Origin: Sphaeroforma arctica JP610
Lineage: Eukaryota
DNA: 37,998 nucleotides
NCBI RefSeq assembly: GCF_001186125.1
Contig: NW_014040526.1
Span: 64,687-102,684, forward strand
Direction: 5' to 3'
Each line of letters starts with the position of its first letter. Position 1 is the first letter of the stretch. Below are positions 1 to 30,691 of this stretch, piece by piece. A program made the position numbers and the translations under genes. The notes under the pieces are model-generated. The model had not been told where the DNA came from and did no database searches. It saw only the letters and a program-made list of their open reading frames with translations.

Positions 1-265
1 CAGGAGGACCAAAATCCATAAGTAGTAGTTCGGAGATTATAAAATTTAGTTCATAATATCCTACATCTACTAATGTCTCAAATAGGTACAAGTAGATGAG
101 TCATACCAAATATTCAGGCTATTGGAGCCATCAAAGTGAATTTAGAACACTTTGGAAATATTGGAAAAAGAGCTTGTATTAAATTATTTAAAATACAAAA
201 AAAACCAATGTATTATCTCAATTGATCTTGATATTTTAGACTGACCGGAGGCCGTATTTCTATAC
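1..265 (-). repeat. Partial LTR (same family as the solo LTR at 9693-10232), running off the window edge
   Basis: Reverse complement of ~180-265 matches 9694-9777 (aaatacggcctccggtcagtctaaaatatcaagatcaa...). Reverse complement of ~1-95 matches ~9800-9895 (cctatttgagac...gtagatgtaggatattat...ttttggtc). Confidence 0.85.
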
Positions 266-561
266 TAGCAAATGAAGTGATAGAAATTAACTATCAGCAG
301 ACGCTAGTTAACTTGGCACTGCTAGCCGTAGATCAACATAACTCTGACGGATCGTTTAAGAAAGTCAGAGTATATTTAGATATGAGTCCAATAAATAAAT
401 TATTGCCAACTCATAGCTTTCACATACCTCGTATTAACGAGCTACTGCAAAGGATGGAAGGTGCTACAGTATTTACAACTATAGACCTTACACAAGATGC
501 CATCAAATGCAGGTATATGAACCACATAGTAAATAAGTTTTACGTGAAAAGGTAAACAATA
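265..561 (+). pseudogene. Reverse transcriptase fragment of a second copy of the element 1 family
   Basis: Near-identical to 3634-3929 (IEINYQQT.VNLALLAVDQHNSDGSFKKVRV.LDMSPINK...TTIDLTQ), with a frameshift near its end. Confidence 0.9.
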
Positions 562-588
562 TCGCTTTGAGAGACCGAATCTTACACA
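558..588 (+). repeat. Remnant (last ~30 nt) of the upstream LTR of element 1
   Basis: aatatcgctttgagagaccgaatcttaca matches aatatcgccttgatagaccgaatcttaca at 7627-7655. It ends in TACACA, the inverse of the TGTGTA at 6888. Confidence 0.8.
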
Positions 589-713
589 TTTTAAAGTTAA
601 CAAAGGTACTAATTACTTAGACTATTTAAGCGTAAAGGTAGATTAACTACCACAAAAATTTTCTTGTCCAAGCTAGTCCTTAAGAGACAAGCTAGTAGTC
701 ATAAGTTAAGATT

Positions 714-2973
714 ATGACAAAAAAAGACAATGCTCCTTCTAAAAAGCGTAGAGCTGAAAAGAAGAAGATGGAGAGAGAAGCCGCTAGCGCTGCCGTAAGA
801 GTAATCGCCGCCGCTGCCGATGCGTTTAACCGCACAGTAGCCGAAGCACTTGCTCCGACAATAATAGTCAATAGGACAATGCTTCAGATAAGGATGTAGC
901 CACTCCGATTAAGGAGACTACTCCCACTAACACAGCCCGAGGGCCAACTATTGCCTCAACTTCAAAGCTGGCATTTACGAAGCCAAGAAGTGAGACAAGG
1001 GACACGTCTCAAGACGACCCAACCAATTCTTTTGACGAAACTCAGAAATAAAAGTTCCCGATTATAAGGGAGTCTCCAATTATAGAGGACAAGGACAAAT
1101 CTCAGAAGGAACCTATAACGGAACCAGAAGATGAGGTAAGCTCAAGTAGCAAACCCAAATCTACATCCGGGATTATTAAGCCAGCACGCATAAGTAAGTT
1201 AATTACTGAAAACACTGATCTTAAGAATCAGATAGCCATCCTTATTAAAAACTTGATTGTTGAACATGTAGATCGATTGTATAGATCAGGAAAACATACA
1301 CAGCACTTACGCGAGCATGTTTCTCCGGACATTACTGAAGCCCTACAGAAATGGACAGAACGTCGACAGGCAACTACGCCCGAAGAGCGTAAAGACTCGA
1401 GCGCTACACCTGTGTCATATGAGCCAGATGTGCTCAGCGTATCTACACTTTATGAGGTACTACCACCAGAATTTCATACTAATTATTCGCCTGTTCTGAC
1501 ACCCGGCCGTGAGTCACCCGACCTTAAAGGTATTATAGACGCAGAGGCAGGTAGAAATACTCCACCACCTTTACCCAATTAGGATGACAATCGTCGGAAA
1601 CCAGTTAAGACTGGGTATGTTATCCAGACACATGAATCAAACAAAATTATATTACCAACCCCTATCCGACGGATTGAGCACCGAAAGGCCTCGACCATGG
1701 ATTTTACAAGGGGTAATAAACACCCCCGTAAACGTGTTAACGAAGTCGAATATAATCGCTTCGATCGCACAGCATTGCATCAGCCCGCAGAGGATTTCCA
1801 CTCTGACGAGGTGACCGAACTTAACAAATCGATCGACGATTACACCATTAAAATGAAAATCGCCCACGATGCGCATCATGCTGATGATGTCTCATATTTT
1901 GCTAATATGATTGCGATTAAGCAAAAGCGCATCGATCAGCTACTTCAGGCCCAACGTGGACAAGACCACAGGGATAACCAGAAGTACAAAGGACAGATCA
2001 GTCGACTTAAGTCGAACTGGGATGCCAACAGCAAGCAGGACGAGTTTATAAACAACCATGACCTCGACAAGCTAACCCGTACGCTTAATGCGTTTACGGT
2101 CATGCTGGAGATGAATGATATCGCTCCCCAGCAATGGGTCTCCGCTTTATTACAGACGTTTGATCCTACAGGTACAAGTTACTTGATCCTGCAGCGACAC
2201 CAGCATGAGCACGACACTTGTTGTGACTGGCCAGCTGTGTGTTGGTTGGTTACATCCTTATTATGTAAGGATATGCGTAACCCAGGACTGAGTTCAATTT
2301 TAACTGAACCAGTTGAGAACACGCCCATTCAGAGTTGTATTCTAAAGTTAGATGCTGACCTGAAATGTCCAGATATAACAAAGGACAAGGCAAAGTGATG
2401 GTACGAGTTCCTGGTTATGCACGTGTTCTGTAAGAACATAGGGAATAACGACCGTGAGAGCCTGTACACCGAGTTGCGACGTAAACACGCTACTGAGGCT
2501 CGAGACAAGGGACATGAAACAAAGTTTCATATATCCAGACTTACGTGGGAACAGTTTTATGATACTGTATCCACTCTTTTCCCCGCACACCGAGTAACCT
2601 CGAAGGGAAAGCCGGTAAATAAGAAACCGCGCGAGCTTGCTGATCAAGGATACCTCTCACGCCAGGCGTCAGATGATAAACCTCGTCAGACGCGTCCTCA
2701 CCAGACACGTGCTCGCGACTCCACTCATCAATCAACGCGACCCAATAAACGGGCACGCGCGGAGGCGAAGGATAAGGAACCTTCATTTCAGGAGATTAAG
2801 AAATGTGCCGACGCACATTGTGGGTATGCCATCTGCCAATTGACCCCTAACGGTTATTGAAATGGCAGACATGCACCCACACGTACACACTTTCTTACTA
2901 AGTGTGACAAGTGTGAGAAAAAACCAATGGCTATCACGCCAAGTCTTGTGACAAAATGCCCGACATTAAATAG
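714..2973 (+). pseudogene. gag-like region of element 1 (broken into several ORFs)
   Basis: Run of + ORFs (714, 1253, 1697, 2417) between the LTR remnant and the protease. A C-terminal Cys/His knuckle-like motif (CDKC..../GYHAKSC, across a frameshift) lies at ~2900-2950. Confidence 0.65.
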
Positions 2974-3036
2974 GAGTGAAAGTACTACCAGGTACACTCG
3001 TTACAAAGGAAAAACAACGACTATTTAGACGAGCGT

Positions 3037-4868
3037 ATAATAATACCTGTATATTGCAACGGAAATAAAGTCCTTGCATTGATTGATCCTGGTTCAGAAA
3101 TTTCATTCATATCCGACCGCTTTGCATTAATGAAAGACATTGAAAGGCGCACTCAAACAACTCAGCTCATTTTAGCTGATGATAAAACTTCTAAGTGTGA
3201 TACCATGGCCACAGATGTTATAATCTCCCTGGTCGATGATAGGAGTACCACTACCCAAGCTGTGATAGTTAAGATGTCATATAAGTACGACATTATAGTC
3301 GGAATGAGCGATTTACCCACTATAGGTATAACCGTAACTGGTCTACCAAATAACATAAATCCATTAAAGGATCAGTCAGACGATAACTGTCTGAATCCAT
3401 ATAAGCCCCCGTCAGACAAAATCAAGGCAACAATACCTGACTTTGCGGACAAAATCATGGATCTGATTTTAGTAAATAAGATAAAGATCACAGATTGGGC
3501 AAAATTCCGTTTTAACGACGGGTATGTCAGCCTTGACTTAACCAAGGTGGACTTTATACGGTTAAAGTGTCCCTCAAGGAACTATGTATCCTGGAGACAC
3601 GAGGCTGTGGGAAAAGAACAAGTTGAGAAATGGCTAGCAGATGAAGTGATAGAAATTAACTATCAACAGACGCCAGTTAACTTGGCACTGCTAGCCGTAG
3701 ACCAACATAACTCTGACGGATCGTTTAAGAAAGTCAGAGTATGTTTAGATATGAGTCCAATAAATAAATTATTGCCGACTCATAGCTTTCACATACCTCG
3801 TATTAACGAGCTGCTGCAAAAGATGGAAGGTGCTACAGTATTTACAACTATAGACCTTACACAAGGATACCATCAAATGTAGGTATATGAACCACATCGT
3901 TTAGTTTTACGTGGAGAGGTAAACAATACAGGTTCAGAGGTGCACCTTTCGGGTCACACTTTTTACCAGCATTCTTCTAACAAGTAATGGAAGAAATGTT
4001 TGCAGACATGCCTAACGTGCAAGTCTACATAGATGACATAGTCATCTTTTCCAAAACTAATGGCGAACATGCCGCATTAGTCAGACGAGTCCTTAAGAGA
4101 CTCAACGAACAAAACTTGAAGATTAATGAGAGAAAATGTCACCTAGCCACGAGCGAAATTCAGCTCTTAGGCTACCGAATATCTGGGGAAGATATTAAAA
4201 TCGACCCTGGTAAAGGAGAACACCTGTTAGATTGACGAACACCGATGACAGGAAGAGATGTGAACAGCATGTGTTGGTTTGTAAACTTCTTTACAGATGG
4301 AGTACCACACTTGGCTGACTACCTTAAACCTTTTGGACACTTAAGATGTCATAAAGGCAAACTAGAAGACTTGTGGACTAAAGAGTGTGATGACGCATTT
4401 AAAACGCTCAAACACGCAGTCCAGCAAGCCCCTGTTGTACAAGGACCAGTCGATGGCGTGCCGTTTGAAATAGCAATGGACGCCTCCGACTTAGCCTTAG
4501 GAGGTGTATTATATCAGGTTATAGATAACAAACCTAGATATATACAATTATTTAGTCGAGCAATGAATGCTTCACAGTTGAAATACCTAACTGTTAAACA
4601 AGAGCTATTAGCCATAGTGGCAGCTCTAACACACTTCCGAGATTACTTATACGGAGCAGCATTTACGCTGATGTGTGATCAGAAATATCTTCAATATATG
4701 AAAGAGATGAAACCCGACTCACAATTACCAAGTCGCTGGCATGATACAATATCAAAGTTTAATTTTGATATAAAACATCTGCCAGGAATACATAACCATT
4801 TACCGGATATGTTATCACGCTGCGTACCGGACTTTAATAAATCCGTACGTGAGATACTAGCCACTGAT
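3037..4868 (+). pseudogene. Element 1 pol: aspartic protease, reverse transcriptase, RNase H
   Basis: DPGS protease-site variant at 3085. RT motifs VRVCLDMSPIN, IDLTQGYHQ, GAPFG and VYIDD. RNase H motifs AMDASD, KQELLAIV, MCDQ and NHLPDMLSR. In-frame stops at 3880, 3978 and 4233. Confidence 0.92.
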
Positions 4869-5246
4869 TAGAAATGTAACCCCAGGTGGTTTGAACTGAC
4901 TCAAAAGATATTTGGGCCACATAATATAGATATGTTTGCTGCACATCATAATGCCCAACTATCGAATTACAGGACGTTGAATCATCCTTTGGGAGACGCC
5001 TTTCAAATAGACCTCTCCAAACATAATGCGTGGGCTAATCCACCATGGCAGTTAATTGCCCAGCTACTAAATTATGATCATACACACAAAGCTACCATCA
5101 CGTTGTGTTGCCCATTACGGAGTAACGATCCATGGCTCAATACATTAATAAGCATGATACAATGCGAGCCAATATATTTAGATAGGGAAGTAGATACCTT
5201 CCTATATCGGGGTACCCGAGCCGTCCAGAAGACGCCCTGGAGCTAA
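4863..5246 (+). pseudogene. Dam-like (DIRS MT-type) DNA N6-adenine/amino-methyltransferase domain in element 1 pol
   Basis: Same frame as RNase H: D*KCNPRWFELTQKIFGPHNIDMFAAHHNAQL...DAFQIDLSKHNAWANPPWQLIAQLL...ITLCCPLRSNDPWLNTL. The SAM-binding DxFA is at ~4929 and the catalytic NPPW at 5037-5048. Confidence 0.85.
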
Positions 5247-5280
5247 GTCTGGAAACACTACAGACTTAGAGACCACGCAA

Positions 5281-6573
5281 GTGGATTCTCAACACCCTAC
5301 CTTTATTCTGAAGGAGCAGAATGATAAAAACATTCTTGTATGGCTGACGCAAAACCATAAGCTGAAGCACCAGAACGTAGTAGATGCACTTAAAGATGCT
5401 AAGCGAAATGGGATCGCGCACCCTAAGCTGGCAACTTTAGTTGACAGAGTATATCAGTCATGTGCAGACTATGATCTCAACCAGATTAAGCGCTATGGGT
5501 TCGCACCGCTTAAGAGTGTGACTGAAGATGTTTCATGGCGCAGGGCCATCATTGATCTGGTTGACCTGCCTACGTCCGAGCACACAGGCGACCGTTACGG
5601 ATGCCACTTCTTTGATATGGCTTCACAGTATAACTTGCTCTATCCGTTAAAGGACAAGAGTACGCAGATCGTGGCAGAATTATGTTGCCAAGTCTTTGCT
5701 GACCACGGGTGGTCAGGTATAATGTGTACTGATAACGGTAGCGAGTTCTGCGATGACATAATGGAATCGCTAGTACTCGTATCAGGCATGTGCCATAAAA
5801 AGGGTGTACCATATAAACCTCAAACGCAAGACGCGAATGAAACGCGCTATAGAAGACTTAAGTTCTTCTTACGTACTGCATTAACGGATGATGCAGATGA
5901 TTGGCCGTACCACTTTAAGTGGGTACAAACACAGATGAACGAGTGTGCTGATCCAGTTACAGGTACAACACCCGCTCACTATTTTCGGGGCAGATATAGT
6001 GAGTTACAAATACTTTTTAACAAGGACGAACCTAGTCACCATGAGTTACCATAGTTAGAGAAGGTACAACGTATTTATAACATTGTATATCCTTACTGGC
6101 GAGAACCACGCAATATTGCTATATTAAAAAGGAAAAATAGATGGAATGCTACCAAAAACATAGCAGAGTATCAGGTTGGAGACAGAGTTAACATCCGTCA
6201 ACGTAATTCCGATGCTACTGTATTAACATCTAAATGGATAGGACCATATATAATCTCTGTAGCTGACGTTAAAAGTGGAACATATGAGGTAAATAACCCC
6301 GATGGTTCTAGTGCGCTTAATATAGGCACTAGTCGGATTCAGACTACCGAGATTATTATCGCAAGAAGACATGACTCGAATGCCCCTCTTGATCGTTCTG
6401 AATTTTAAGACATTATATGGAGAACGGATAAGGGAGGTTATACATACTATCGTACACGCTTTATAGACGGTACAATCGCTGAGTTGACTTCAGATGCTTT
6501 CGATAATCAAGACTATTTAAAAGCCTTTAATCGAAAATGGCGTAAACGCCTGCATAAGCCACAAGCTGAATAA
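5281..6573 (+). pseudogene. Element 1 DDE integrase with GPY/F module and chromodomain-like tail
   Basis: Degenerate HHCC (HKLKH...C..Y), IIDLVDL, and TDNGSEF followed 35 residues later by E (QDANE). Reading through the stop at 6052 gives YQVGDRV...SKWIGPYII...GTYEV, then EF*DIIWRTDKGGYTYYRTRFIDG...DYLKAF. Confidence 0.85.
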
Positions 6574-6877: not shown

Positions 6878-6886
6878 GGGTGGGGG
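6878..6886 (+). other. Polypurine tract of element 1
   Basis: GGGTGGGGG lies one base before the TGT start of the 3' LTR. Confidence 0.75.
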
Positions 6887-6887: not shown

Positions 6888-7657
6888 TGTGTATTAGCCA
6901 GGCCTCCACATTAGACTCTATGTTATAAACGTACTCTTAAGCAGTACGTAAACTATAAATGTACTCTTAATAGTACGAGGAATTTAAGTTTCCTAAACGG
7001 TTTTTAACGGTTTTATTAATTAATACCTTTTCCATTTTACATATAAGATATTTGGACAAGGCCATTAAAAGACCCCAGTAAAATACCAAACATAAGATTT
7101 GGTCTAGTTCTATTAATAGAACTATATTTACTTTCCAAATCTATTTATATCTGAATATTTCGGTAGCGAGGTGGCTCAACCGAACGTAGGTTTCTAAGGA
7201 CTATTAGCGTTGCTTAGTTTATCCTCCGTTCAGCCAACCAGATGTGCCAGTCTGATGAAGGCTAAGTCAATAATTCTTCATAAGTGGCAAGTTATTGATT
7301 AATGCAATAACTATGGACATCAAGAGTATTTTTCTTTTTTCTTTTCTTTTTTTCTAAAGATAGGATTTTACGAGTCTCTCGGATTCGCCCCAACGAAACA
7401 TGCCATAGTTTCTAATAGAGCGACAGCGAAACACTAAATAAAATCCCTTCGGCGAAAACAGTACTGAGAGGATTTTATATAGGCAATGTCTCAGCCTCAC
7501 AATCCCTCAGAGTATTGCTGTTTTCACGATGCATACCTAACTTTACCAAAAGACTCATTTCGTTTATTTACTTCGAATTTCACGATACTTAGACTTAACC
7601 TCGGCGTTTAATTACTCTAAGGCGTTAATATCGCCTTGATAGACCGAATCTTACAAA
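6888..7657 (+). repeat. 3' LTR of element 1 (~770 bp)
   Basis: Starts TGTGTA directly after the PPT and is AT-rich and non-coding. Its end matches the remnant at 558-588. The exact end is 7655 or 7657. Confidence 0.78.
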
Positions 7658-7670: not shown

Positions 7671-9692
7671 ATGTCGAACGAGTATTAATAGAGCATTTCG
7701 GGGCGGCTAGCTACCTTTTTGGCCCTGGATATACGGTAGACCTGCATGCGAAAGCAATGGAGTTGAGTGATGTATCAGAGAGACTCGCGTGGCATCGAGC
7801 AGTCATGATGACGGAGTTAGCAGAATTCGCCGTGGGAAGAATTATATATATTATGGAATCGGAATTGAACCCTCAAGGACGTGGCACTCGGGCTTCACAG
7901 GCGGCCCCGATGAAATCCAGCAAGTTGTATACAGCAATGACAGGTTTATCATCTTTACAGGCGTATGAAGCAAATAAGAAACTCATGGATCAAACGCAGA
8001 AAAAACTACACAGAAACATCCATCAGCAGACCAAAGGGTAGTAGTGCTTTTGTGGATAAGTGGGGCTTTAAAGGGCCGACCAGCCAACCAGATTTTGATA
8101 GGCGGAGATGGAGTGGAATTTTATGCGAATGAGGAGGAGGCGGTAGACACGCTGAGAGCGTGCCTACAAGCAGAAAAACCGTTAATCGACCTACAGAAAC
8201 GTGAAGCGGTTAAATATGTGGCAGCAATGGATAAGAAGAACGAGGACAGAGTGAGGAGACGGCGTACGTGAGGAGCGAGAAGCGAGACGAAGGATAAGGA
8301 GCTCATGAGACAGCAAGAAAATTCGGGTGATCTACGGACACAACTTGGAGTCGCAGTCGCCACCGCAGTCAGTTACCAAGGCACATGAGTCAGAGCAGGA
8401 GCCGTTCGCCAGTGAATGAAAAAGGGCGCTCACCGAATTTTTAGTGTTTCCAGATTTGCACTAAGCCGTACCACGGGTAGCAAAGCGGAGCGTTTGAATA
8501 GAGAGCGGGAATTGGACCAGACGGAATGAGCAAAAGACAAACTATTCAGGTTGAGTGACTCAGCACCGGATGTGGAAATAATAAATGTGTTTTTAGAGGA
8601 AGCGAGAGAGTCACAGGTTACACTCAAGCCACAGGGAGGCCCTTGGAAATGGAGCGGAAATGAGTGGATCATTCAGGATAGAGATAATGTATTAGATTCA
8701 ACACGCAAGGAAGTAATGTATATGGATGACTTCATCTTCAGCGCAGCAGGACGTTGGAGACCGACCACAAAAACCAGACGCTTATACATTTTCCTGAATA
8801 GAGAGAACTTGTGGTTCCCTAAGAGTAGGATGTATAACATCAATGGGTTATATTTACCACGTTATGGGGATCATAAAGGGCAACAGAAGCTGAGACATCC
8901 AGTGAATCAGTGGGGATACAGGGACAGAGATTTCCATCAACGACGAGCACCGTATGATACACCCAGGGAGATAGACAGCACAACCACACAAGTAGTACCA
9001 TGGGCAGCAATAGACGAAAATCTAAGACAAGACGCGGCGCGAGAAGGAAATTTTGCAGCACAGGCAATGTTACACGCAGTCACAAAGAACACAAATTTAC
9101 GGACAACACTGACTTATATGTATAACAGAGACGCAGCGCCGTTAGTCAAAGCGCTCAAGGAATTTAGGCGACATGACGAACGTTTATTAACGGAGCTTTT
9201 CCATTCGCAAATATAGTTATCCTACTAGATGCATACGAAATGTTTGAGCCGGGGGGAGCAGCAGCCCATGCAGCAAACTTGGCAGCAGCATTTAAGGGAG
9301 AGCAGCAATCAAATTTTGGAGATAGGGATAGAGTTCGAACACCAGAATCGAGACAGGGATCGTCGAAGCGTAAGTAGAGAATATAATAGGAATAGCAGGG
9401 GGACCAGTATGATACCAAACCGAGACCAATCGTACAGTGGAAGAGGCAGGTCACAATCACCGGGTTTCAGAGCACCCACGTGCAACAGATGTTTATTACG
9501 CCACATGGGATCGGCGTGTTCTCTATACCATATACGTCACAAACCAGAACACTACCAGAACGCGTGTCCACAAGCTCAGTTCGTTTCTGGCAACACACAG
9601 GGGGAAACAGCGGCGGCAGCGATACCAGCAAGCAGGGGCAACGAATGAGCGTCCAGTGTAGGCGGCAGACGAGCAGCAGCAGCAGTAGCAAC
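7671..9692 (+). pseudogene. gag-like region of element 2
   Basis: Broken + ORFs (7757, 8044, 8551, 9229) ending in an R/S-rich stretch and CNRCLLRHMGSAC...H..H...C. The last frame continues into the protease once the solo LTR is removed. Confidence 0.65.
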
Positions 9693-10232
9693 TGTATAAA
9701 TACGGCCTCCGGTCAGTCTAAAATATCAAGATCAAATGAGATAACACATTGGTTTTTATTTGTATGTAAAATATTTANNNNNNNNNNNNNNNNNNNNACT
9801 TACTTGGACCTATTTGAGACGATAGTAGATGTAGGATATTATAAACTAAATTTTATAATCTCTGAACTACTACTTACAGATTTTGGTCTTCCCGCCAATC
9901 TCCAAAATCCAAGGAGTCTTTTTCATTTTTTTATAACTTTTCTTCAGATGGAACTTTATTTTTATTAGTTAATGTATTAACTTGACTTGCGTTCTTATGT
10001 CTATCTACAACTTAGGCATGTGGTCACGAACACTTAGTACGTCTAGTGAAAATTATTCAATAAAGAACAGCTAGAGGTACGTTCTGTGTGATCGAGGATA
10101 TTAAGGCTATTACCAAGAGGCAGTCCTGATCATTCTTACACAAGCTACCACTGCTAAATCCTAACTGACTTAAATTGTATCTTAGTTTATATAACATAGT
10201 TCAAAACATAGAAATATCCATCGAAGTTTACA
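9693..10232 (+). mobile_element. Solo LTR inserted at the gag/protease junction of element 2
   Basis: TGTA...TACA termini flanked by CAAC (9689-9692) and CAAC (10233-10236). The alternative end at 10234 gives GCAAC/ACAAC. A second copy lies at 1-265. Excision restores the reading frame. Confidence 0.85.
9778..9797. other. Assembly gap (20 N)
   Basis: Run of n characters. Confidence 1.
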
Positions 10233-10379
10233 CAACAACGACAACTTCGACGAGCCAACAGGAAGAGGAACATTAGGTACCATACTATCTACAATGACAT
10301 GACGCCAGAGCTGCAACGGAAGCAAATACCAGCTCCGATGAGGATGCTTGGACGGGACCGGTCACGGAAGCCTTATGTG

Positions 10380-13000
10380 AAGACGAGCATGCATGCATTT
10401 ATAATGACACGGGAGCTATACCAGCAATGATCCATTAAGAATATGCACGAGAATATGGGATAGAAATTACAGATACAACACCAATGTACCTTCAGGGTTT
10501 TGGTGGAACAGGAGAGTCGGTTTTAACTCAGAAAGCGACTACAACGTTATTATTGAATGTTCGAGCAGCGGATGGGATGCCGACGTTCTTTGAGACAAAA
10601 GAGATGATGTTTTTACTTTCCAGCTGGTTGTCACAAGATTGCGATATATTAGTAGGCTTCGATGCCATGCAAGACAACTTATTGGGGACGAGTTGGGACA
10701 AATCCACAGAACCACCGACATTTACCTTGCAATTGCCTAGGTCACAGGGTGTAGCTTTCCTAATTCCGAAACAGGAGTAATCTTGGTCGGAAATATATAT
10801 TCCTAAGAAGCCAGACTTGGATGGAAAACTACCGGATGAGTACGATTTCACACACTTGCGTAGGGTGGGGGATCTGCTCAAGAAAACAGAAGAGGAAATG
10901 TTAGAATTGAAGGGCAAGTTCCTCACTGCGAGATACGACCCACGACAGACCAAATTCATCAAAGGAGTCGCAGCCAAGCTACAGCCACAGGAGGGAGCAA
11001 AGCCGTCAAGGTCCATCTACTTCACGAAAGACCCATTGTTGAAGGACATCGAAATACAGAAAGTAGCACAATTATACCGATAAGGGAAGGCCGAGCCAAG
11101 CAACAGATACAGCAGATGGGTCAGTTCGGTAAAGACCGTAAGGAAGGATCCGAGAGTGGTGCCAAAGGATTTGAAGGATTATAGAATAACAATAAACTAC
11201 ATCCAGGTAAACAAACAGATGGTTAGAGTTGCGTATCAATTACCTTTGGAAGACGACATGGGTGAGCATGGCACAAATGCTCTCAATACGACAGTAGCAG
11301 ATTTAGCGGCGTCATATCATCAGTTAGAGCTGAATCAGGAGTCCAGAGACTATTTGACGTACGTTACCTCTGATGGGAAGTTTCATCGAACGACGTGCCT
11401 GCAGGAAGGCATCGAGAAGAGCGCGTTTGACATGCAGCACTTTGCAGAACCCATTTTCGCTGATGTCAATGACCACAAGCCATATATAGACGACAACAAG
11501 ATAGCGACACATAGAAGGCACTCAGAATCAGTAATAGAGGCGTTGGAACGACATTGGCAGCAAACAATACAGTTTGTAGACATATGCATAGAATACAATA
11601 TACAGTTGCAACCAAAGAAAACACAAATAATGCATCTTGCAGATATACCCACCGTATTTTACGGCAGGGAGACAATTGGGAACGCGACGATGATTATGAA
11701 GGAGCGGGCGCAGGCATTATTTGACAGGTCGGCGCCTAAGAATAGACGAGAGTTAATTTCTTTGTTAGCTGTAATGTCGTGGTTGTCAAAGTATATACCT
11801 AACTACGCAGCGATAGCAGTGCCTATGTCGGACCTAACAAAAAAGGGTACATTGTTTGGATGGAGAGCGCCACAGCAACAGGCTCTCACACACTTGCTAA
11901 CATTAATTATGAAACGGATCAAGTTGTATGAGCCCCTACCTCACCAGCGCCTATGTCGGACCTAACAAAAAAGGGTACAATGTTTGGATGGAGAGCGCCA
12001 CAGCAACAGGCTCTCACACACTTGCTAACATTAATTATGAACCGGATCAAGTTGTATGAGCCCCTACCTCACCAGCGGTTAGTCATCATACCGGACGCAT
12101 GCAACGTAGAAGTCGGAGCAGCGGTGTTTGTGCAGATACCACCACCGGGCACGTTGGAATACGATGAGGAACAAAGGTGCATTGAAGAATGTAAACGATA
12201 TAGAGAAGTGTTAGGTCTGCCACCCATCAGGTTGCATCCGCAAACACCTAAGTTAGTCATATCCGAAGTTGAATAATCTATCTATAGCATATCGGATAGA
12301 GCGGAGGTAGTTTACAATCCGATCGACGATTTGAGGTCAGTGCCGGAGTTCACGCCATTCGTGCCTAGGAATGCGGCTACCGATATACATAGTGAAGACA
12401 CAGAAGACCACCTAGGTCGCACTCAGGAGGATATGGTACAACAGAACACACCAACTCAGAGGGGCACACTTGAGCACCTGTCGCGCACTCAGAGTGGCAC
12501 ACTTGAGAACCGATATACAACTCAGAGTGTCACACTTGAGAATGATGTAGGGTCACAAACGAAGCAGAGTGGTGCACTTGCAGAGGATTCAGGGCTACAG
12601 TTGACAGCAGACTTTACCCAGGGTGACGATGGATAGCCCTAGAGACTTAGGCATTTCGATAGGACGACATCGGTTCTTGTACCCAGTGGCTTTTTACTAC
12701 AGTAAGCTCAATACAGCTCAGCTCAATTATGGAGCCACTGACCGCGAAATGGTAGGTTGCACATACGCTTCTAGGAAAACTTTTGTTCTTTGTCGCAGAT
12801 CAGTACGTCCAGTATTTTTAGTCACCGACCATAAACCGTTGGTTAACATCTTGGCCAATCCAGAACCCTATCTCCAGACGGAGAGGTTTAAAAACAGCAG
12901 AATTATACGTGCGTTAAACACCATCAATGAGGTCGTGATGGATGTTCAATATGTAGAAGGCCCACTTACAGTTTTTGGAGACTATTTTTCGCGCTCTACA
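10380..13000 (+). pseudogene. Element 2 pol: protease, RT, RNase H (with large insertion)
   Basis: IYNDTGAIPAMI, DILVGFDAM, DYRITINYIQVN, DLAASYHQ, KPYIDD, LVIIPDACNVEVGAAVF, PVAFYYSKLNTAQLNYGATDREM, LVTDHKPL. Contains stops and frameshifts. Confidence 0.9.
11821..12077 (+). repeat. 128-bp tandem duplication in the RT connection region (frameshifting)
   Basis: 11821-11948 is repeated at 11949-12077 (MSDLTKKGT.FGWRAPQQQALTHLLTLIM.RIKLYEPLPHQR twice). Confidence 0.95.
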
Positions 13001-13197
13001 AACCATAGGATCAGCTTTTGCGACCTACAAGGAAACAGGTGGAGTTTGGACAAGAGGAAATCGGTAACAAGGCCAACAAACAGTCGGCATGTGCGTTGAC
13101 GTTCACACCGCTGGAACGACGAGTGACGTGGAGTCATGATAGAGCAGATAACACTCAGCATACCAGGGAAGGGTACAGGACTAGCATCACAAAGTAT

Positions 13198-13626
13198 GCA
13201 CACCCGGGTAGTTACACGTTTAACCCTTTGTGGGTAGCACTTATTGACCAACTTTTGGGTCCGTTGGACATCGAATTGTTCGCAAGCCACGAAGACGATG
13301 TATTAGACATGTATTGTACGAAGGATGGGTCCGGACCAGCGGGATGCTAAGCTTTTGAAGTGGATTTGGTGAATATCAGAGCGTATATGAACTCACCGTG
13401 GAAGTTAATTGCAGCATTTTTACATTCTTTCAAGCATATCAAGGACACTTACGTGGTTGCGGTAGTACCGTTTTGGCCGACAGCTGAGTGGTTTTCACTG
13501 TTGAATAGCCTCACTCAGGGCACGCCATGGATAGTGCCGCACACGGAGGATACATTCCTGCATAGGGGACAACGTATTCTGGGGTTACCACCATGGCAAT
13601 ATTATTTGGTAGTGGTGTTGCAGGGT
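13198..13626 (+). pseudogene. Dam-like (DIRS MT-type) methyltransferase domain in element 2 pol
   Basis: YTFNPLWVALIDQLLGPLDIELFASHEDDVL...*AFEVDLVNIRAYMNSPWKLIAAFL...VVAVVPFWPTAEWFSLL...DTFLHRG...PPW. NSPW (13390-13401) is one base from NPPW. It is in the same frame as the downstream integrase. Confidence 0.83.
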
Positions 13627-14619
13627 GGTCGACCACGGCCACCGCCGCTACCGCAGAGTTTCTGGGCGAGATTGGGGTTGAGCAGAGCACCCCCCTCGTT
13701 ACATGTTTTGGGGTACTCGTTAGTACCATATTGCACAGGCATCACGGGGCCGTCCAGCACGACACCGCGGATCCCGGTTACCAGCACACAGGACAAATCA
13801 TGGAAGTGGTTGGGGGCGAAGAAGGCACCATCGCTAAGTGACACGGTGCAATCACCCCGACAATGTAAATCTGGGACAGGCAAGGCCATGCAGTCGCCAT
13901 TGTACAGCAGGGAAGACAACACTGAGAAACAATTGGCATGTCAGTTGGTACATCAGGATGGCTTAGCAAGATCTGATGGTCAGCAAATGGTCGTGTACAC
14001 ACCTCCGAGCTTGGAAGTAGCAAAGAATATGAGAGAATCAGACGATGAATCGCCACCCCGATTTGCACAGTCGTGGATGGCAGCTGACAACGCATTGCAA
14101 CAATAGGCAGACGACGTCCAAGGGATGACGACGGGGGCGAACCAGGAGGGCAGCTATAGAGAAATGGCTAATACAATGGAACTACCGCGGACGCCGTTGA
14201 AGAAGTCGGTCGATCAGCTGTTAGACAAAGCGTTGGAGGCGTACGAGTTGAAATTGTCAGGCCTTGACCCTTTCTTCGAGCTGCCACGTTTTGACGCGGA
14301 CTGTCAAGGGGTGCCGGCGGGCACAGGGGAGAAGGTCGCGGCATTTCAACACTCATTAGAATAGTTTGACACCATCCACACGGAGGACATCCAGCCTAAG
14401 TCTTGGCCGAGATCCAAACAGGCGGTTCCAGAAGTGTGGTATACCGGTTCAGACGATGTTACTACTGATGCTCCAATACACAACAGGAAGCGAGCACGAC
14501 ATACACCGTTAAAATTACTTCCGACTACGGAAACATCTTTGTTGAATCGTTTGAAGAAGTTACAACTTACATGTGTGGGACAGGAAGTTCCCCCGACAGC
14601 GACAATGGCAGCTTTATGG

Positions 14620-15625
14620 TTGTGGCATGAGGGGTACTCGCATGTGCAAACAGATCGCTTGCGAGCGATTGCACAAGACAAATGCGGATGGAATATCCCC
14701 GCCGAGGTGCTCAAACCGCTGACAGACAGTTGCACCGATTGCATTCGGGAAGGTCTCCCGACGGGCCCTACGAGGGGATTGTTACAACAACCACCAAGAC
14801 CTATGCGCATATGTGAGGAGATAAACTTGGACTACTTAGTACTAGATGAGGATACCGAGGGCTATAAGTACGTACTAGCGGCGCAAGATGGGTTCACTTT
14901 ACGAGCGTTTCGAGCAGCAATGAAAGATGATGAGCATTCAGCGACGGAATTAATTCGGTTTTGTCAGACGCAACTGGAGCCCAGAGGGCATATTTCTGAA
15001 TATGTAAAGGATCAGGATAGCCTGTTCATAAGCCAGGAGTTTACGGACTACGCCGCGAGCAAAGGTTCGTCGATCAGATACGTGTCCAAGGGCGAACACG
15101 GAGGCAATGGGAGAATAGAGGTTTTTTTTGCGAACTACTAAGAGGTGGTTGAAGCGCTCGTTGGGCGTTGGATTAATGCATGAATGGCGCCATGCTATAC
15201 CATCATTTTTCAGTAATTATAATGCAACCACTTCACGAGTCATTGGAACATCTCTATATGAACTCGAGACCGGAACAATCTACAAACACGAAACAGATGG
15301 GACGATTGAACGGTTGTTAGATGAGGCACTCGGGTTTGACATTCCTACTGTGACGTTAGCAGGGGAATAACAGGAAAGATTTAAGAAAGCACAGCGATTC
15401 CGCGAGAAAGCGCAACACTCACAGAAGCAGTCAGCCGATCTCGCACGCTTGGACGTCCCCATGTTAGCAATTGGGCGACTGTGTATGTACTTACCGATAA
15501 AGATTGGCATGGACCCGCGGAAATCATAGCACACAAGCCGCTGATCATCCATTACAATAAGGATGTGGCTACACAGAAGGAATACGGGGTGTATTTAAAA
15601 AATATCAAAGCACATATTCCACTGA
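14620..15625 (+). pseudogene. Element 2 DDE integrase
   Basis: HEGYSH...CTDC zinc finger, INLDY, KDQDSLF followed 35 residues later by E (GNGRIE), YNATTSRVIGTSLYEL, and a WHGPAEII GPY-like motif. Frameshifted. Confidence 0.88.
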
Positions 15626-15886
15626 TTGGACGACAAAAGGCACGACCACGAGGCTCGTTCATGCGATCAGCGTATGCCAGTTGGCTATTTCACGACTCCC
15701 CTTTTGCAGATGCACCCCACGAGTGGAAACAGGAAATCGTTGCAGCCATCCGAACAATGCCGACAGCGATTCAATTCATGTACCGCCGTAACTGCCATTT
15801 TGGGGTTTTCAAAAAGCTGGCAAGCAAGCATGGACACAAGACGGCGGATATATTCCGATTGTAAAGGAGGGCCAGCCACCCGCAAG

Positions 15887-16285
15887 TATGACGCGAGACA
15901 AATTCCTTGCCGGAGGCCAGACTACGGGTAATAAGGTTACGCAGCCGGTAATTGCGAAGCAGCTCGAGGTGACACATGATATTATTCAGGGCAGAAAGCC
16001 ATCTGATTATGCGAGTATTGTGCGAGACAAGCTTTTAGTCGGCGATTAGACTACAAGTGAAGACCATACAACACCGAAAGCTAGCCCGTATCGAGCCAAG
16101 AATAGGCAGCTCGAGTTGACACATGGCGATTAGATTACAAGTGGAGACCATACAACACCGAAAGCTAGCCCGTATCGAGCCAAGAATAGGCAGCTCGAGT
16201 TGACACATGAGACTATTCAGGGCAGCCAACCACTTGATATTGCCAGTTTGACGCGAGACAAGCTGCTTGCCGGAGGACAGATGCC
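15887..16285 (+). repeat. Internal repeats in the 3' region of element 2, including an 84-bp tandem duplication
   Basis: 16041-16124 is repeated at 16125-16208. 15959-16033 resembles 16190-16264. Confidence 0.85.
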
Positions 16286-16547
16286 GGGTGGAGATCACAC
16301 GGAGCGGGCCAAGAAGCGCAGGGTGTTGTTTTCGTCGTCGACGCCGAGAGCCAGCCCGTACGCCTCGAGATGGACTCGGGCGTCGTCGTGTCCGCCGCTC
16401 TAGAGGGCTGGATGAAGGGTAAAGGGAGGATGGATTATAATGATTAGAAATATTAGATATTTAGGAAGAGATGACCAAGGACTCTGTCGTGCTGGAATGG
16501 ACTGGCTATACCGACAGGTGCTTGTACTGGAGGGGCGGTATCTCTTC

Positions 16548-16559
16548 GGGGGGTGGGGG
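16548..16559 (+). other. Polypurine tract of element 2
   Basis: GGGGGGTGGGGG followed by TG; same core as the element 1 PPT. Confidence 0.65.
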
Positions 16560-18669
16560 TGCATGAAAATAAACAATAAAGATACAAATACAGTGGACAG
16601 CACACGCACTCTCAGTTTTGCGAAATACCAACATATAAACAGCAAATTGATATTGACGAGCTTGTTGAGACACAAATGCAGGCAACAGCAGTGCAGCTTC
16701 GAGCGTGCAAGCGCAGGCTGTACTTTTAAAAAGCGGTTTAAGAACTTACTATGACGATGCTATTCTAGCTGCTGGTCAACGGTCTGCTAAATAGTAGAGG
16801 TAACTACATGCAGAATAACAATCCGGTTGTAACAAAATCTCTCGAATTTTCAACCGTATATTTCACCAGCTATTAGTACACATCATGCGAAAGAAGGATG
16901 ACTGTGGCCATTTGTTCTCAGTTAAGGACTCAGCAATACCTAGTGGAATACACAAAGCGCATGTGTGAAAGTATGGGCAGGCTTTGTATAGTTTTTCTCC
17001 CGACTGAAGTATACTATCACACCATGCACGTTGTCATCCCCAATATACACACATTTCTCCTGTCGTTAGTATTGAAGCCGGAAGGGCAACAAGCTACATT
17101 ACACCGTCCCTTTCCCCCGCCCCGACTCCTTGCTGAGCAAACAATATATCTCTCTCTACTATCAGTATGCAATAAGCCACATTGCAGCATGAGTATGACT
17201 GCCACATTCAAACATCACATACACTCCCACAGGCATTGACATCTCGGATGGGTGTGTAGCACTTCTCTTCAAACCCTGCAGCGGACAATGAATCGATGCC
17301 AATCAAAGGGTAGAGATATAGGGTAGACGGAATATCATATCGCGTGCAGCAACAAGCAGGTCGAACAGGAAATGTATATGCTAAAAGTACAAAAGTGTTT
17401 TAGCACGACGTGTCGGCGGCACCCAGAACACATGTAGATAGTACTACGGATAACACAAAACTATGCAATTCACTGAAAAAATTCTCCCCACACGGACCAG
17501 GTTTTGACAGAAAGGAATACACGGGTGTTGGGCAAAATATTAAGTCAGATTGCGCTAACCTGCCCAAGATACCGCTGGGTCATCAGGAATACAGGGAACT
17601 GTATGTTCCCATCCAGAACTTTCCTGTGAGGAATAAGCATACTGCATACATGCCGTCGTGTCAGTGTGCATATAGAACTCGCCCCGAAGTGAACAAAGGC
17701 AGGTATGGCAGCGTGTCTAACTCAACTACAACAAGGCATTTATTCGAAAACAGTACACAAGATGATGTAGTATTTAGCTTTGCCTGCCAATTAACAGTTG
17801 AATATTGCTAAGCAGACACTTAAGCAGGTGATAGACCATACCATTTGATGGGCAGCACGGGCGGATGGGTCTCCCTCAATTTGAATAATTGGATATCTGG
17901 GCAATCGTTCACGGTGGTTCTATATCTAGAGTTAGTTCAGAGTGGCGTACGAATACGCATAAGCAGAAATCCAAAAGAATATGGCGGAGTTTCTATATAA
18001 TATAACAGACAAATTGCTTTGGTGAAAGGTTGACGGCGTAGAAGACCCCTTCACTGTCACTGACTACCAAGTGATTGGTTTATGATCTCTTGGAATCGTG
18101 TGCTGCACTATTGAATATAGCAGCTATGGATGTTACGTAAAAGATGTGTGAATATATGCCGACAGTGTAGCAAGACGACCTCGCAGCAGGCCACTGTTGG
18201 TCTGTGCACGTTCGTATCGCTAATTGCCCTAGGAAGCAAGTGTAGGCAACTACGTACCCTGCAAAATATGTGTATGTAACTACTAACCCTGCCAAGTATG
18301 CATCATATCCATAATAGACTCGCACATTCGGAGTAAATACAATTAGCGCAGAAAGCAGACTCATGAGTAGGGACACTGTGCCCAAGCAGAGAATAGCATC
18401 CCTACATGGCGCTAAGAAAGCACCGCGTGTCCATACCTTGACTTGGACTTATGGTATGTATATTACCGCCCACGATTACATTACGGTCTAATACCCAGAC
18501 TTGAACGCTTTGGCCACGGTCATGTGCGCATGGAAGGCAGCAACATGGACAATCTTGTTATGCTTTGGATTCAGCCCCGAATGGGCAAAGGACGTACCAT
18601 CCCATGCAAAGAAGTTCGCAACAAAACCTTTCGGTTCCATGGGCAAACGAGGATGTACAATCTGAAAAA

Positions 18670-19229
18670 CGAATCGCAAGCATATCTACTTAATACTACT
18701 ATTCAATGAGCAGCACACCTGTGCAAAAATACCGCAAGCATACCTACTTAAAACTACTATTCAATGAGAATCGCATCTGTGCAAAAGGATTGCAAGCACA
18801 CCTACTTAAAACTACTATTCAATGAGAAGCACATATGTGCAAAAGGATTGCAAACACGCCTATTTAATACTACTATTCAATGAGAATCGCATCTGTGTAA
18901 AAGGATTGCAAGCACACCTACTTAAAACTACTATTCAATGAGAAGCACATATGTGCAAAAGGATTGCAAACACGCCTATTTAATACTACTATTCAATGAG
19001 AAGCACATCTATGCAAAGGGGTCGCAAGATCGGTGCTGTACGAGCTCGTACATAAAATTTCCAGGAGCTACAACTTAATGTGCCAAACATACAATACTAT
19101 TCAATGAGAAGCACATATGTGCAAAAGGATCGCAAGCATACCTAAAAATACTACTATTCAATGAGAAGCACATCTGTGCAAAGGGATCGCAAGCATACCT
19201 ACAAAGTACTACTATTAAATGAGAAGCAC
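18670..19229 (+). repeat. 58-bp satellite array 1 (~8-9 units, one interruption)
   Basis: Unit actactattcaatgagaagcacatctgtgcaaaaggatcgcaagcatacctacttaat. It is interrupted at ~19027-19096 by a fragment of the 340-bp repeat. Confidence 0.95.
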
Positions 19230-19569
19230 AAGGGCTGATGACAATCAGGCAGATCGGTGCTGTACGAGCTCGTACATAAAAGTTTCACTTCATGTGCCAA
19301 ATATACAATAGAGCGAAGCTGTTGTCATATATTTGTACAGATCTGACGATTAATTGAAGTTGGATGTTCGTTTGAAGTTGGCAAATGAAGATAGCTTGGT
19401 AATCGATATGAAGCTTGCAGACACTGCAGGCTCAATATAACAGAAGCCACTTGGCACACGCAATATGACTGATGTCTCGAGTCAGAACAGAGATTGAGGT
19501 GGCAGCAAAGACAAGAGCAACAAAGGTAGGAAAACTGACCATTTCGCTAAGGACTGTTTGTTTGATGGC
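19230..19569 (+). repeat. 340-bp direct repeat, copy 1
   Basis: aagggctgatgacaatc...ctgtttgtttgatggc is nearly identical to 21389-21728. Confidence 0.95.
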
Positions 19570-20345
19570 GGGTGCAGAAGCTATGGTAACAAATATCATA
19601 TGGCAACCCTATACAAACAGGCAGGACGGGATGGGCCGATCGGACGACGGCTGAGAAATAGAAAATAAAAACTTGGAGAGAAGAATTGCTGATCGATTGT
19701 CGTAGAATGTCGGGCATGCTGGACAATGTGATGTAAGCTTGTTACCGAAAGGTTGGGCTGGTATAAACATAAAGAAACAATATACATCCTCGATAGTATG
19801 GTATGGACGGATTGAGCTTACGCTTGGTTTTGCTGACACAGAGAGCTGGCAGACAGTCCATAGGGTCGACGCCAAGGTATTTGACGTGCCTTTACTTGGG
19901 TGGCGATGGATACAAGACTATGTATTTGAGTCGTCGCTGACAGTCAGGACAGAGCGAAGGGCACCATGTGGAGAAAAGCATGACTGTGGTGGCAATTCAA
20001 GTTCCAGGAGGTTGCGTGTGATATATGGCTACAGCTACCATGATCACAATACGACTAAAGCTCCATCAGATCGTTAATAAGGAGCACGTCGTTGAGAAGT
20101 GTTTCTGGAACGCTGATGGTCCCCACTAAGGAGCCTGTAACATTGGTGTTTGAGCAAATCTTGTGCCGTTAAATCGACAATTCAAATTTCGGCATATCCC
20201 AGTTCTCAATGAAGAGGATATAGTGCGACGTGTATCAAAAATATATAAATACTCCTCTAAGTCGGACACGGCGCGTGGCTGTTGATAGGTTGAGCTTGTA
20301 CACGAGTCCACAAAGTACATTCGCCTATATTTTTTTTTATAGGAA

Positions 20346-20555
20346 AAGCCATATCGATACCTGAAGATACCAATAGAGTTGACCGATTCAGGATTCACAT
20401 CCCAATCCCTGATGGAAGATCTTTTGCGAGACCTTCAGAAAGGGGTCTACATATACATGGATCATGTCATCTTCGGATCTGTGGCCGAGGAGGAACACGC
20501 TATCTTTTCGAAGGAAGTACTACGCAGACGAAATGAACGAAATATTAAAGTTCGT
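20346..20555 (+). pseudogene. Ty3/Gypsy RT remnant
   Basis: KPYRYLKIPIELTDSGFTSQSLMEDLLRDLQKGVYIYMDHVIFGSVAEEEHAIFSKEVLRRRNERNIKV parallels element 1 MEEMFADMPNVQVYIDDIVIFSKTNGEHAALVRRVLKRLNEQNLKI. Confidence 0.75.
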
Positions 20556-20635
20556 CTCATTCTGTGTGCATACTGTATTCTTAAGTGTATTTATTGATCT
20601 ACATTCCGTTCAATGCTTGCTACTTTGTGAAAGAT

Positions 20636-20640: not shown

Positions 20641-20646
20641 CTCTAA

Positions 20647-20720
20647 TTTCCAGAGGCGGACTTGAACCGCCGACCTGCTGCGTGTTAAGCAGCCGTCATA
20701 ACCAGCTAGACCATCCGGAA
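20647..20720 (-). tRNA. tRNA-Val (anticodon AAC)
   Basis: TTCCGGA TG GTCTAGCTGGTTATGAC G GCTGC TT AAC AC GCAGC AGGTC GGCGG TTCAAGT CCGCC TCTGGAA A. Acceptor, anticodon and T stems pair; A and B boxes are present; CCA is not encoded. Confidence 0.93.
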
Positions 20721-21215
20721 ATGGTACCTGATTCATAATATGTAATATATAGTTATTTGTAATTGTAAGTTCTATTTCATACGTATACTTGCTACACAGG
20801 GATAATCATAATTAATTCAGGGTGACTAACCTGGTGAAGTGAAGAACGATTTTCTACAATACTCTATCTCTCGTCCTTTAAAAGACCTCTTACGAGACGA
20901 CACTGTCCACGATGAGCGGAGCGATAAACGTGGAGTCGATCAAATCGAGCATGGACTGGATCAAATCGAAAACGCCATCACGGAAGACTTTGGCAATATA
21001 TCGATCATACGGCAATAGTAAGATAGAATAGAGCTAATCGGAAACGTTAATCACGTACCCCACACCAAATGCTACCGTCGAGTTGCTCGAATGAGTATAG
21101 ATGTGCATTCAAAGAGAGTACTCAAGCATCAAAACGTACAACTACGAAGCCACGCAAAGATCACGCTGTTCATAAATGTGAACATAAAGATTGGAAGTTA
21201 TCATAGTGATATTCT

Positions 21216-23195: not shown

Positions 23196-23342
23196 CTTCA
23201 TCCATGCTGAGGATTGAGACGCATAGCACCTTTGTGATTGTACCTTTGAGCGATGGTTTCAACGGGAATGGCGACATACAATTAGGAGAGAAATATAACA
23301 CAACTCTCAGTGCAATATGAGGATGTCGTGTTCGGACTTATA

Positions 23343-30138: not shown

Positions 30139-30139
<1 letters not shown>

Positions 30140-30185
<46 letters not shown>

Positions 30186-30657: not shown

Positions 30658-30691
<34 letters not shown>

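What the first reader, a model, noticed from the sequence alone, without database searches (positions are those of the whole stretch)
4863..5246. Ty3/Gypsy LTR retrotransposon with a Dam/DIRS-type DNA methyltransferase fused between RNase H and DDE integrase
Seen: directly after the RNase H end (DMLSR), in the same frame and separated only by a TAG at a probable Trp, there is a ~125-aa domain with GP..IDMFA (SAM binding), DAF, WANPPW (amino-MTase catalytic motif IV) and TLxxPxxxxxPW. An HHCC/DD35E integrase, PPT and TG..CA-type LTR follow. Known: an MT domain resembling phage Dam N6-adenine methylases follows RNase H in DIRS1-like elements, which use a tyrosine recombinase; canonical Ty3/Gypsy Pol lacks it. 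Inference: a Gypsy lineage that could methylate (6mA or 4mC) its own cDNA or insertion site, e.g. to evade silencing, or a chimera/intermediate between DIRS and Gypsy. I do not know of a characterised example but cannot check the literature here.
Basis: partly seen in the sequence, partly recalled or inferred. Interest (0 to 1): 0.88.

Follow-up and report, generated by a model that had tools for sequence, protein, structure and literature searches.

The report
Broken DAM-LTR retrotransposon copy, already described
This is a broken copy of a gypsy-type jumping gene of the marine protist Sphaeroforma arctica that does carry a domain predicted to fold like phage adenine methyltransferases between RNase H and integrase, but such elements were described in this same species in a 2026 preprint, and what the domain methylates is still untested.

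Summary
4863-5242 encodes a Dam-family (PF05869) domain in frame after RNase H. Protease, RT, a DD35E integrase and a 766-bp TG..CA LTR surround it. Intact relatives hold RT-RNaseH-Dam-integrase in one ORF. A confident model of a 43%-identical relative matches phage N6-adenine methyltransferases (TM about 0.8) and, among solved structures, the RNA cap methyltransferase PCIF1 (Z 10.7). This copy is dead: stops, a frameshift, and a deletion removing the domain's last strand. A window gene is 99% identical to Sphaeroforma arctica SARC_00910. The novelty claim fails: bioRxiv 10.64898/2026.05.21.726589 (main text read) defines an 'Ichthyosporean DAM-LTR lineage' that includes S. arctica, reports 6mA enrichment on such elements, and found no activity in E. 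coli. This scan also noted the architecture earlier in other genomes. Small additions: a second, very divergent gypsy family in the window carries the domain too; the domain spans a whole minimal phage enzyme; and an RNA or RNA:DNA substrate is not excluded. Verdict: real, already known.

The parts
558..586 (+). remnant (last 29 bp) of the 5' LTR of element 1
   Evidence: 93% identical to 7627-7655; followed by CATTTT rather than a TGG tRNA primer site
1052..2990 (+). gag-position reading frame with stops at 1580, 2396 and 2858
   Evidence: no convincing Pfam hit; gag identity inferred from position only
3043..3309 (+). aspartic protease
   Evidence: Pfam RVP_2 E 6.6e-5, Asp_protease_2 E 7.6e-5
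3688..4181 (+). reverse transcriptase (YIDD), broken by stops at 3880 and 3978 and a frameshift near 3900
   Evidence: Pfam RVT_1 E 1e-13; tblastn of P0001 and P0002
4374..4820 (+). Ty3/Gypsy-type RNase H ending DMLSR
   Evidence: Pfam RT_RNaseH_2 E 4e-29, RT_RNaseH E 3e-25
4863..5242 (+). Dam-like (PF05869) amino-methyltransferase domain with DMFA, DAF and NPPW; copy-specific TAG at 4869; last strand deleted
   Evidence: fold of relative P0020
5242..5246 (+). deletion junction of this copy (end of the methyltransferase domain and linker lost; frame change)
   Evidence: loose ends behind 5242 and before 5246 in 4 of 4 runs; P0002 residues 762-879 unmatched
5248..6570 (+). integrase: HHCC with second Cys as Tyr, D5554-D5731-E5839 (DD35E), C-terminal part; stops at 6052 and 6406
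   Evidence: Pfam rve E 5e-4
6878..6886 (+). short G-rich polypurine-tract-like stretch (GGGTGGGGG)
   Evidence: directly in the sequence; role inferred from position
6890..7655 (+). 3' LTR, 766 bp, TG..CA
   Evidence: diverse loose ends before 6890 and behind 7655
13195..13635 (+). homologous Dam-like domain (ELFA, NSPW; stop at 13348) of a second, very divergent gypsy-like element (RT 11084-11965, RNase H 12605-13099, integrase 14365-15141)
   Evidence: 34% over 82 aa to element 1, E 4e-14; Pfam RT, RNase H and rve hits; RT about 23% identical to P0001
21219..21329 (+). short decayed fragment of the same domain, near an RT fragment at 20157-20585
   Evidence: tblastn of P0001, 62% over 37 aa, E 1e-6

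Best explanation
This is a dead copy of a multi-copy Ty3/Gypsy LTR retrotransposon of Sphaeroforma arctica (a DAM-LTR) whose intact relatives carry, in the Pol polyprotein between RNase H and integrase, a conserved domain predicted to be a SAM-dependent adenine methyltransferase that likely marks the element's own newly made cDNA. Shown here: the domain order, one ORF in intact relatives, conservation as high as RT, an excess of synonymous differences among copies, and inactivation of this copy. Predicted: the fold, from a model of a relative. Inferred (the preprint's model, untested here): Pol is packaged in the particle, so the domain sits beside RT/RNase H and deposits 6mA on the cDNA or RNA:DNA intermediate; after integration the host AMT1 would maintain ApT methylation and keep the insertion transcribed. 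The module was most likely taken from a DIRS-like element, where it lies right after RNase H. Identity of the element is about 0.95 certain; the cDNA-6mA mechanism about 0.5.
For: P0001 and P0002 (71% and 64% identical to the window domain) hold RT-RNaseH-Dam-integrase in one ORF. The same order, with a Pfam integrase hit, is seen in 5 of 16 proteins and in 9 of 21 (21 picked from 150 listed). Between distant families the domain is 46-47% identical, against RT 43%, RNase H 33-41% and integrase core 27-31%. Of 24 listed differences between this copy and other copies within 4874-5209, 14 are synonymous, against an expected share of 0.21-0.27 (P at most 0.0012); 8 of 11 intermediate-frequency ones are synonymous. 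Across 166 aligned rows the DxFA Asp is kept in 154 of 160, the motif IV Asn in 123 of 161 and Pro-Pro in 157 and 159 of 161. The model (pLDDT 93.6) matches phage N6-adenine MTases at E 1e-9 to 3e-6, TM 0.71-0.81, over about the whole domain, including stand-alone phage proteins of 130-153 aa. The preprint reports more 6mA and more expression on S. arctica DAM-LTRs than on other LTRs.
Against: No activity has been shown. The preprint's expression of DIRS, DAM-LTR and adintovirus DAMs in dam-minus E. coli gave no rise in 6mA. Its enrichment is correlative and was scored at ApT, the host AMT1 motif. Iyer et al. (PMC4738411, passages) judged DIRS1 MTase domains likely inactive. The close relative P0002 has CPPW, element 2 has NSPW, and FPPF occurs in 18 of 166 rows. 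The best solved match is an RNA enzyme (PCIF1 Z 10.7, KsgA 9.3) ahead of T4 Dam (Z 8.3). The confident model is of P0020, not of the window's family; the P0001 model was poor (pLDDT 52.6). The synonymous count rests on pooled contigs of unknown relatedness.
Confidence: 0.5

Rival explanations
1. The domain is a non-catalytic SAM-fold module, kept for nucleic-acid or protein binding or as a structural spacer in Pol. The 6mA on DAM-LTRs is laid down by host AMT1 because these elements are transcribed or insert near promoters.
For: Negative E. coli assay; the Iyer et al. passage; CPPW in P0002, NSPW in element 2 and FPPF in 18 of 166 rows. Earlier scan notes report loss of the motif in Rozella elements (not checked by me).
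Against: NPPW or NPPF is kept in 114 of 166 rows and the DxFA Asp in 154 of 160. P0001 and the window copy keep both motifs.
Confidence: 0.27
2. The domain is a PCIF1-like enzyme that methylates adenosine in RNA (the element's genomic RNA, its cap-adjacent A, or the RNA strand of the RT hybrid), which would explain why E. coli DNA stayed unmethylated.
For: The top solved matches are PCIF1/CAPAM (Z 9.9-10.7, rmsd about 3 A, 124-135 aligned), then KsgA/Dim1/Erm (Foldseek TMq 0.70 at E 2e-3). Weak PCIF1_WW Pfam hits on two homologues (E 0.001 and 0.005). Iyer et al. place DIRS MTases in the PCIF1 clade.
Against: Phage Dam-family models match better (TM about 0.8, E 1e-9) than viral PCIF1-like models (TM 0.52-0.68 for the four with E under 0.001). 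A sequence search of the PDB found no relative with E under 0.6, so the PDB ranking may reflect what has been solved. A shared fold shows no substrate.
Confidence: 0.15
3. The arrangement is a one-off chimera or nested insertion of a DIRS fragment in this genomic copy, or an assembly artefact.
For: The window is a nest of decayed elements, with an N run at 9778-9797 and a duplicated RT piece.
Against: Uninterrupted ORFs in P0001, P0002 and further proteins; depth across the domain is similar to that of RNase H and integrase in 4 of 4 runs; a second family in the window has the same order.
Confidence: 0.02
4. The enzyme writes N4-methylcytosine rather than 6mA.
For: NPP(W/Y/F) amino-methyltransferases can act on C-N4 as well as A-N6 (general knowledge, recalled).
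Against: All named close structural matches are annotated as N6-adenine enzymes; no call points to 4mC.
Confidence: 0.06

Closest known systems
Ichthyosporean DAM-LTR lineage (Fernandez-Moreno et al., bioRxiv 10.64898/2026.05.21.726589; whole main text read, figures and supplements not seen)
   Same: Same host species (S. arctica), Ty3/Gypsy-like organisation, Dam-like domain with Asn-Pro-Pro, no detectable chromodomain.
   Different: No difference shown. I could not match this family to their sequence set. The main text does not state the domain's position for the ichthyosporean lineage, does not mention PCIF1 (0 occurrences), and says eukaryotic DAMs lack the CD-1 part of prokaryotic Dam, whereas the model here matches small phage enzymes over about its whole length.
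DIRS1-like retrotransposons with an MT domain (PMC3783388, passages)
   Same: PF05869 domain directly after RNase H in pol.
   Different: DIRS use a tyrosine recombinase and inverted terminal repeats and lack protease and DDE integrase; this element has protease, DD35E integrase and a direct TG..CA LTR, and its family's RT groups apart from DIRS-like RTs.
Phage DNA N6-adenine methyltransferases of Pfam PF05869 (for example Serratia phage Tsm2 A0A7S9SNX6, Edwardsiella phage eiAU E7EKP6)
   Same: Predicted fold over about the whole domain (TM 0.75-0.81), NPP-aromatic motif.
   Different: Only 14-24% identical; free-standing phage proteins rather than a polyprotein domain.
PCIF1/CAPAM cap-specific adenosine methyltransferase (PDB 6IRX, 6IS0)
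   Same: Best solved structural match (Z 10.3-10.7).
   Different: 13-18% identity; a 470-490-residue chain of which only the catalytic core matches; acts on capped mRNA.
KnitGypsy-Dnmt3 of Klebsormidium (PMC5890265, passages)
   Same: A Gypsy Pol carrying a DNA methyltransferase under purifying selection.
   Different: A C5-cytosine Dnmt3 enzyme, unrelated to this amino-methyltransferase.

Membership tests
Ty3/Gypsy LTR retrotransposon | pol order protease-RT-RNase H-integrase | tested here: met
Ty3/Gypsy LTR retrotransposon | DDE integrase with DD35E spacing | tested here: met
   D5554, D5731, E5839; HHCC has Tyr for the last Cys in this copy
Ty3/Gypsy LTR retrotransposon | direct LTRs TG..CA with a polypurine tract | tested here: met
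   3' LTR 6890-7655 complete, 5' LTR only a 29-bp remnant; tract short and imperfect
Ty3/Gypsy LTR retrotransposon | primer binding site and target-site duplication | tested here: inconclusive
   no TGG after the 5' LTR remnant; only an 8-nt complement inside the LTR; the 5' flank is lost, so no TSD can be read
Ty3/Gypsy LTR retrotransposon | RT groups with named Ty3/Gypsy references | tested here: inconclusive
   trees without named references: P0001 and P0002 lie among long integrase-bearing polyproteins; 4 DIRS-like RTs split off at 99/97; in the 73-row tree the split has weak support (55)
DAM-LTR (bioRxiv 2026.05.21.726589) | Dam-like domain inside an integrase-encoding LTR element | tested here: met
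Ichthyosporean DAM-LTR lineage | host is Pirum, Abeoforma or Sphaeroforma arctica | tested here: met
   window 34907-35536 (-) is 99% identical to SARC_00910; SARC_08637 holds a piece of the same domain
Ichthyosporean DAM-LTR lineage | no chromodomain | tested here: inconclusive
   no Pfam Chromo hit on P0001, P0002 or the window ORFs scanned; the tail 6394-6555 aligns by position with chromodomains of relatives, but profile tests were not significant (8 of 60 shuffles as high)
Ichthyosporean DAM-LTR lineage | falls inside the preprint's 97%-supported DAM clade | not testable with these tools
DIRS1-like retrotransposon | tyrosine recombinase, no DDE integrase or protease, inverted terminal repeats | tested here: not met
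   protease, DDE integrase and a direct LTR are present; no recombinase Pfam hit among the 13 ORFs scanned
N6-adenine DNA methyltransferase (PF05869) | profile match and NPP-aromatic motif | tested here: met
   window E 2.2e-5, 24.6 bits, under the 28.1 cut-off; many relatives above the cut-off; NPPW present
N6-adenine DNA methyltransferase (PF05869) | Rossmann-type SAM-dependent fold | tested here: met
   model of relative P0020; assigning DxFA as the SAM-binding motif is inferred from its place after the first core strand
N6-adenine DNA methyltransferase (PF05869) | methyl transfer to adenine in DNA | not testable with these tools
   the published heterologous test was negative

The most novel reading that the evidence does not exclude
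The DAM-LTR domain is an active, complete minimal amino-methyltransferase whose substrate is RNA or the RNA:DNA intermediate inside the particle (PCIF1-like), not genomic dsDNA; and it was passed between two deeply divergent gypsy lineages inside the S. arctica genome (RTs only about 23% identical), so the 'single' ichthyosporean lineage hides a further capture.
Probability: 0.12. Interest if true: 0.65.

Novelty: already known. Interest (0 to 1): 0.15.

Why it matters
DAM-LTRs suggest that retrotransposons can write the host's 'active' 6mA mark on themselves in protists that use it. That idea is already in print as a preprint for this species, so this locus adds no new kind. It gives a concrete high-copy family with an intact NPPW motif in relatives, and a second divergent family, as material for the open question of whether and on what the domain is active.

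Tried and rejected
No whole genome was held, so intact copies in the assembly could not be listed. tblastn of the domain against 50,697 phage records found nothing, and sequence searches of the PDB gave only chance-level hits. A 5-sequence model was poor (pLDDT 52.6) and its wide fold search gave best Z 4.9; it was superseded by the 76-sequence model. The wide VIA search of the good model was not run; only Foldseek's top 1000 chains were re-aligned. No scan of viral or metagenome contigs for related loci, no atlas look-up and no cluster-name look-up was obtained, so the hosts of P0001, P0002 and the other unnamed relatives are unknown. No RNA holder was listed on record, so expression was not tested. 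No depletion of GATC (24 seen, 25.8 expected) or ApT (o/e 0.98) in element 1. A hidden chromodomain in the integrase tail was tested and not supported. Self-priming was checked: only an 8-nt complement. Whether elements 1 and 2 share one capture of the domain is unresolved: element 2 is a long branch in every tree; the domain tree puts it with the RNaseH-Dam-integrase group at 83/70 only. Repbase, GyDB and REXdb could not be consulted. Seven paper searches were run; 'DAM-LTR' was found only in the preprint.

Full report
Observation. Translation of 4236-5400 shows RNase H ending DMLSR, 16 further codons, TAG at 4869-4871, and 124 in-frame codons with GPHNIDMFA, DAF, AWANPPW and TLCCPLRSNDPW. 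Pfam gives Dam PF05869 at E 2.2e-5 (24.6 bits; cut-off 28.1), and finds protease, RT, Ty3-type RNase H and rve in the flanking frames. The integrase triad D5554, D5731, E5839 has DD35E spacing, and the last Cys of HHCC is Tyr in this copy. Laying contigs of four public runs shows a high-copy family with diverse loose ends before 6890 and behind 7655, which fixes a 766-bp TG..CA LTR. Only 29 bp of the 5' LTR remain.

State of this copy. It is dead. Pol has stops at 3880, 3978, 4233, 4869, 6052 and 6406 and a frameshift near 3900. At 4870 about 99% of the laid depth reads G in 4 of 4 runs, and P0001 and P0002 have Trp there, so the TAG is private to this copy or a small subset. Other copies leave the window sequence behind 5242 and rejoin before 5246, and P0002 residues 762-879 have no match. 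So a deletion has removed the last strand of the domain and the linker and shifted the frame.

The domain belongs to the lineage. A search with the window domain gave 2 proteins among 15 candidates, P0001 and P0002 (71% and 64% identical), both RT-RNaseH-Dam-integrase in one ORF. A 5-sequence profile gave 18 proteins among 5924 candidates and 4535 representatives at E up to 0.001. Of the 16 further proteins, 5 show RT-RNaseH-Dam-integrase by Pfam, 3 more are long RT-RNaseH-Dam proteins without an integrase hit at that threshold, 4 are about 700-aa DIRS-like proteins with the domain near the end, 1 has the domain after integrase, and 3 are partial. Of 21 proteins picked from the 150 listed, 9 show the full order and 2 have the domain before RT. 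Between distant families the domain is as conserved as RT (46-47% against 43%; integrase core 27-31%). Of 24 differences to other copies within 4874-5209, 14 are synonymous against an expected share of 0.21-0.27 (P at most 0.0012); the stop position was left out of this count, and the copies are pooled contigs of unknown relatedness.

Fold. A model from 5 sequences was poor. With 76 sequences, the domain of P0020 (43% identical to the window domain) gave pLDDT 93.6. Foldseek against viral models returned 20 matches at E up to 0.001, led by phage DNA N6-adenine methyltransferases (TM 0.71-0.81 for the top 12, over about the whole domain, including stand-alone proteins of 130-153 aa), then viral PCIF1-like proteins. 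Against the PDB no match reached E 0.001; the best was PCIF1/CAPAM (TMq 0.70). Re-alignment gave PCIF1 Z 10.7 (rmsd 3.0, 124 aligned), KsgA 9.3 and T4 Dam 8.3. The domain is therefore predicted to be a complete minimal amino-methyltransferase. The fold does not tell DNA from RNA substrate. Motif IV reads NPPW in 66, NPPF in 48 and FPPF in 18 of 166 rows (one row is the window's own element-2 ORF held in the database). P0002 has CPPW.

Host and surroundings. The dehydrogenase exon at 34907-35536 (-) is 99% identical to Sphaeroforma arctica SARC_00910. A second decayed gypsy-like element at about 8500-16600 has the same domain between RNase H and integrase (34% over 82 aa to element 1; ELFA, NSPW), although its RT is only about 23% identical to P0001. 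A third fragment lies at 21219-21329. In trees without named references, element 1's family groups with integrase-bearing polyproteins and apart from DIRS-like RTs (99/97 for 4 DIRS-like rows; weak, 55, in the 73-row tree). Element 2 is a long branch whose place is unresolved.

What is known. DIRS elements carry this PF05869 domain after RNase H (PMC3783388, passages). Iyer et al. place it in the PCIF1 clade and consider it likely inactive (PMC4738411, passages). Gypsy elements with cytosine Dnmt3 are known (PMC5890265, passages). An opinion piece lumps DAM- and DCM-encoding Gypsy and DIRS elements in one sentence (PMC6338049, passages). Decisively, bioRxiv 10.64898/2026.05.21.726589 (whole main text read; figures and supplements not seen) reports DAM domains in LTR retrotransposons and defines an Ichthyosporean DAM-LTR lineage in Pirum, Abeoforma and S. 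arctica with conventional Ty3/Gypsy organisation and no chromodomain. It finds more 6mA and expression on these elements in S. arctica, no activity in dam-minus E. coli, and proposes methylation of the reverse-transcription intermediate followed by host AMT1 maintenance. Its supplements may show whether this exact family, and element 2, are in their set. I found the preprint before consulting the scan's notes, which record the same architecture in other genomes (5 findings with all words, at least 2 genomes); none was listed for this genome or sequence.

Mechanism and verdict. Most likely, intact elements package the domain with RT/RNase H and write 6mA on their own cDNA or hybrid, which would favour a transcribed state after integration (0.5; inferred). 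Rivals: a non-catalytic module with host-written 6mA (0.27), a PCIF1-like RNA enzyme (0.15), 4mC (0.06), artefact (0.02). The feature is real and was read correctly, but it is already described in this species. Interest 0.15.

Noticed in passing
window 8500-16600 (+): Second decayed gypsy-like element with a very divergent RT (best 28% to any fetched RT, apart from a short match to its relative P0066), an RNase H split by a long insert, the same Dam-like domain, and a similar G-rich tract (about 16549-16560) before a TG. P0066 is a database relative with the same insert.
   Followed up: partly
window 587-600: No TGG tRNA primer site follows the 5' LTR remnant (it reads CATTTTAAAG); the priming mode of this family is unexplained.
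   Followed up: partly
window 6394-6555: The integrase tail aligns by position with chromodomains of related DAM-LTRs (P0023 Pfam Chromo E 3e-4) but lacks their signature; it may be a worn chromodomain. Profile tests were not significant.
   Followed up: yes
proteins P0051, P0112, P0035: Other placements of the domain: P0051 and P0112 have an Exo_endo_phos domain and Dam before RT-RNaseH-integrase; P0035 has Dam after integrase.
   Followed up: no
window 3-262 and 9695-9892: The same short repeat (91% identical) lies in opposite orientations at the window start and inside element 2, beside an N run at 9778-9797; 265-561 duplicates RT sequence 3634-3928.
   Followed up: no
window 18576-19200 and 21651-23283: Arrays of a 58-bp unit, with a 300-bp direct repeat (19230-19529 / 21389-21688, 96%) enclosing an RT fragment, a tRNA-Val(AAC) gene at 20646-20721 (-) and a Dam-like fragment.
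   Followed up: partly
window 24618-25784 and 30100-32100: Tandem repeat of about 230 bp, and a long AT/AC microsatellite region.
   Followed up: no
window 34907-35539 (-): Host short-chain dehydrogenase exon, 99% identical to SARC_00910.
   Followed up: yes
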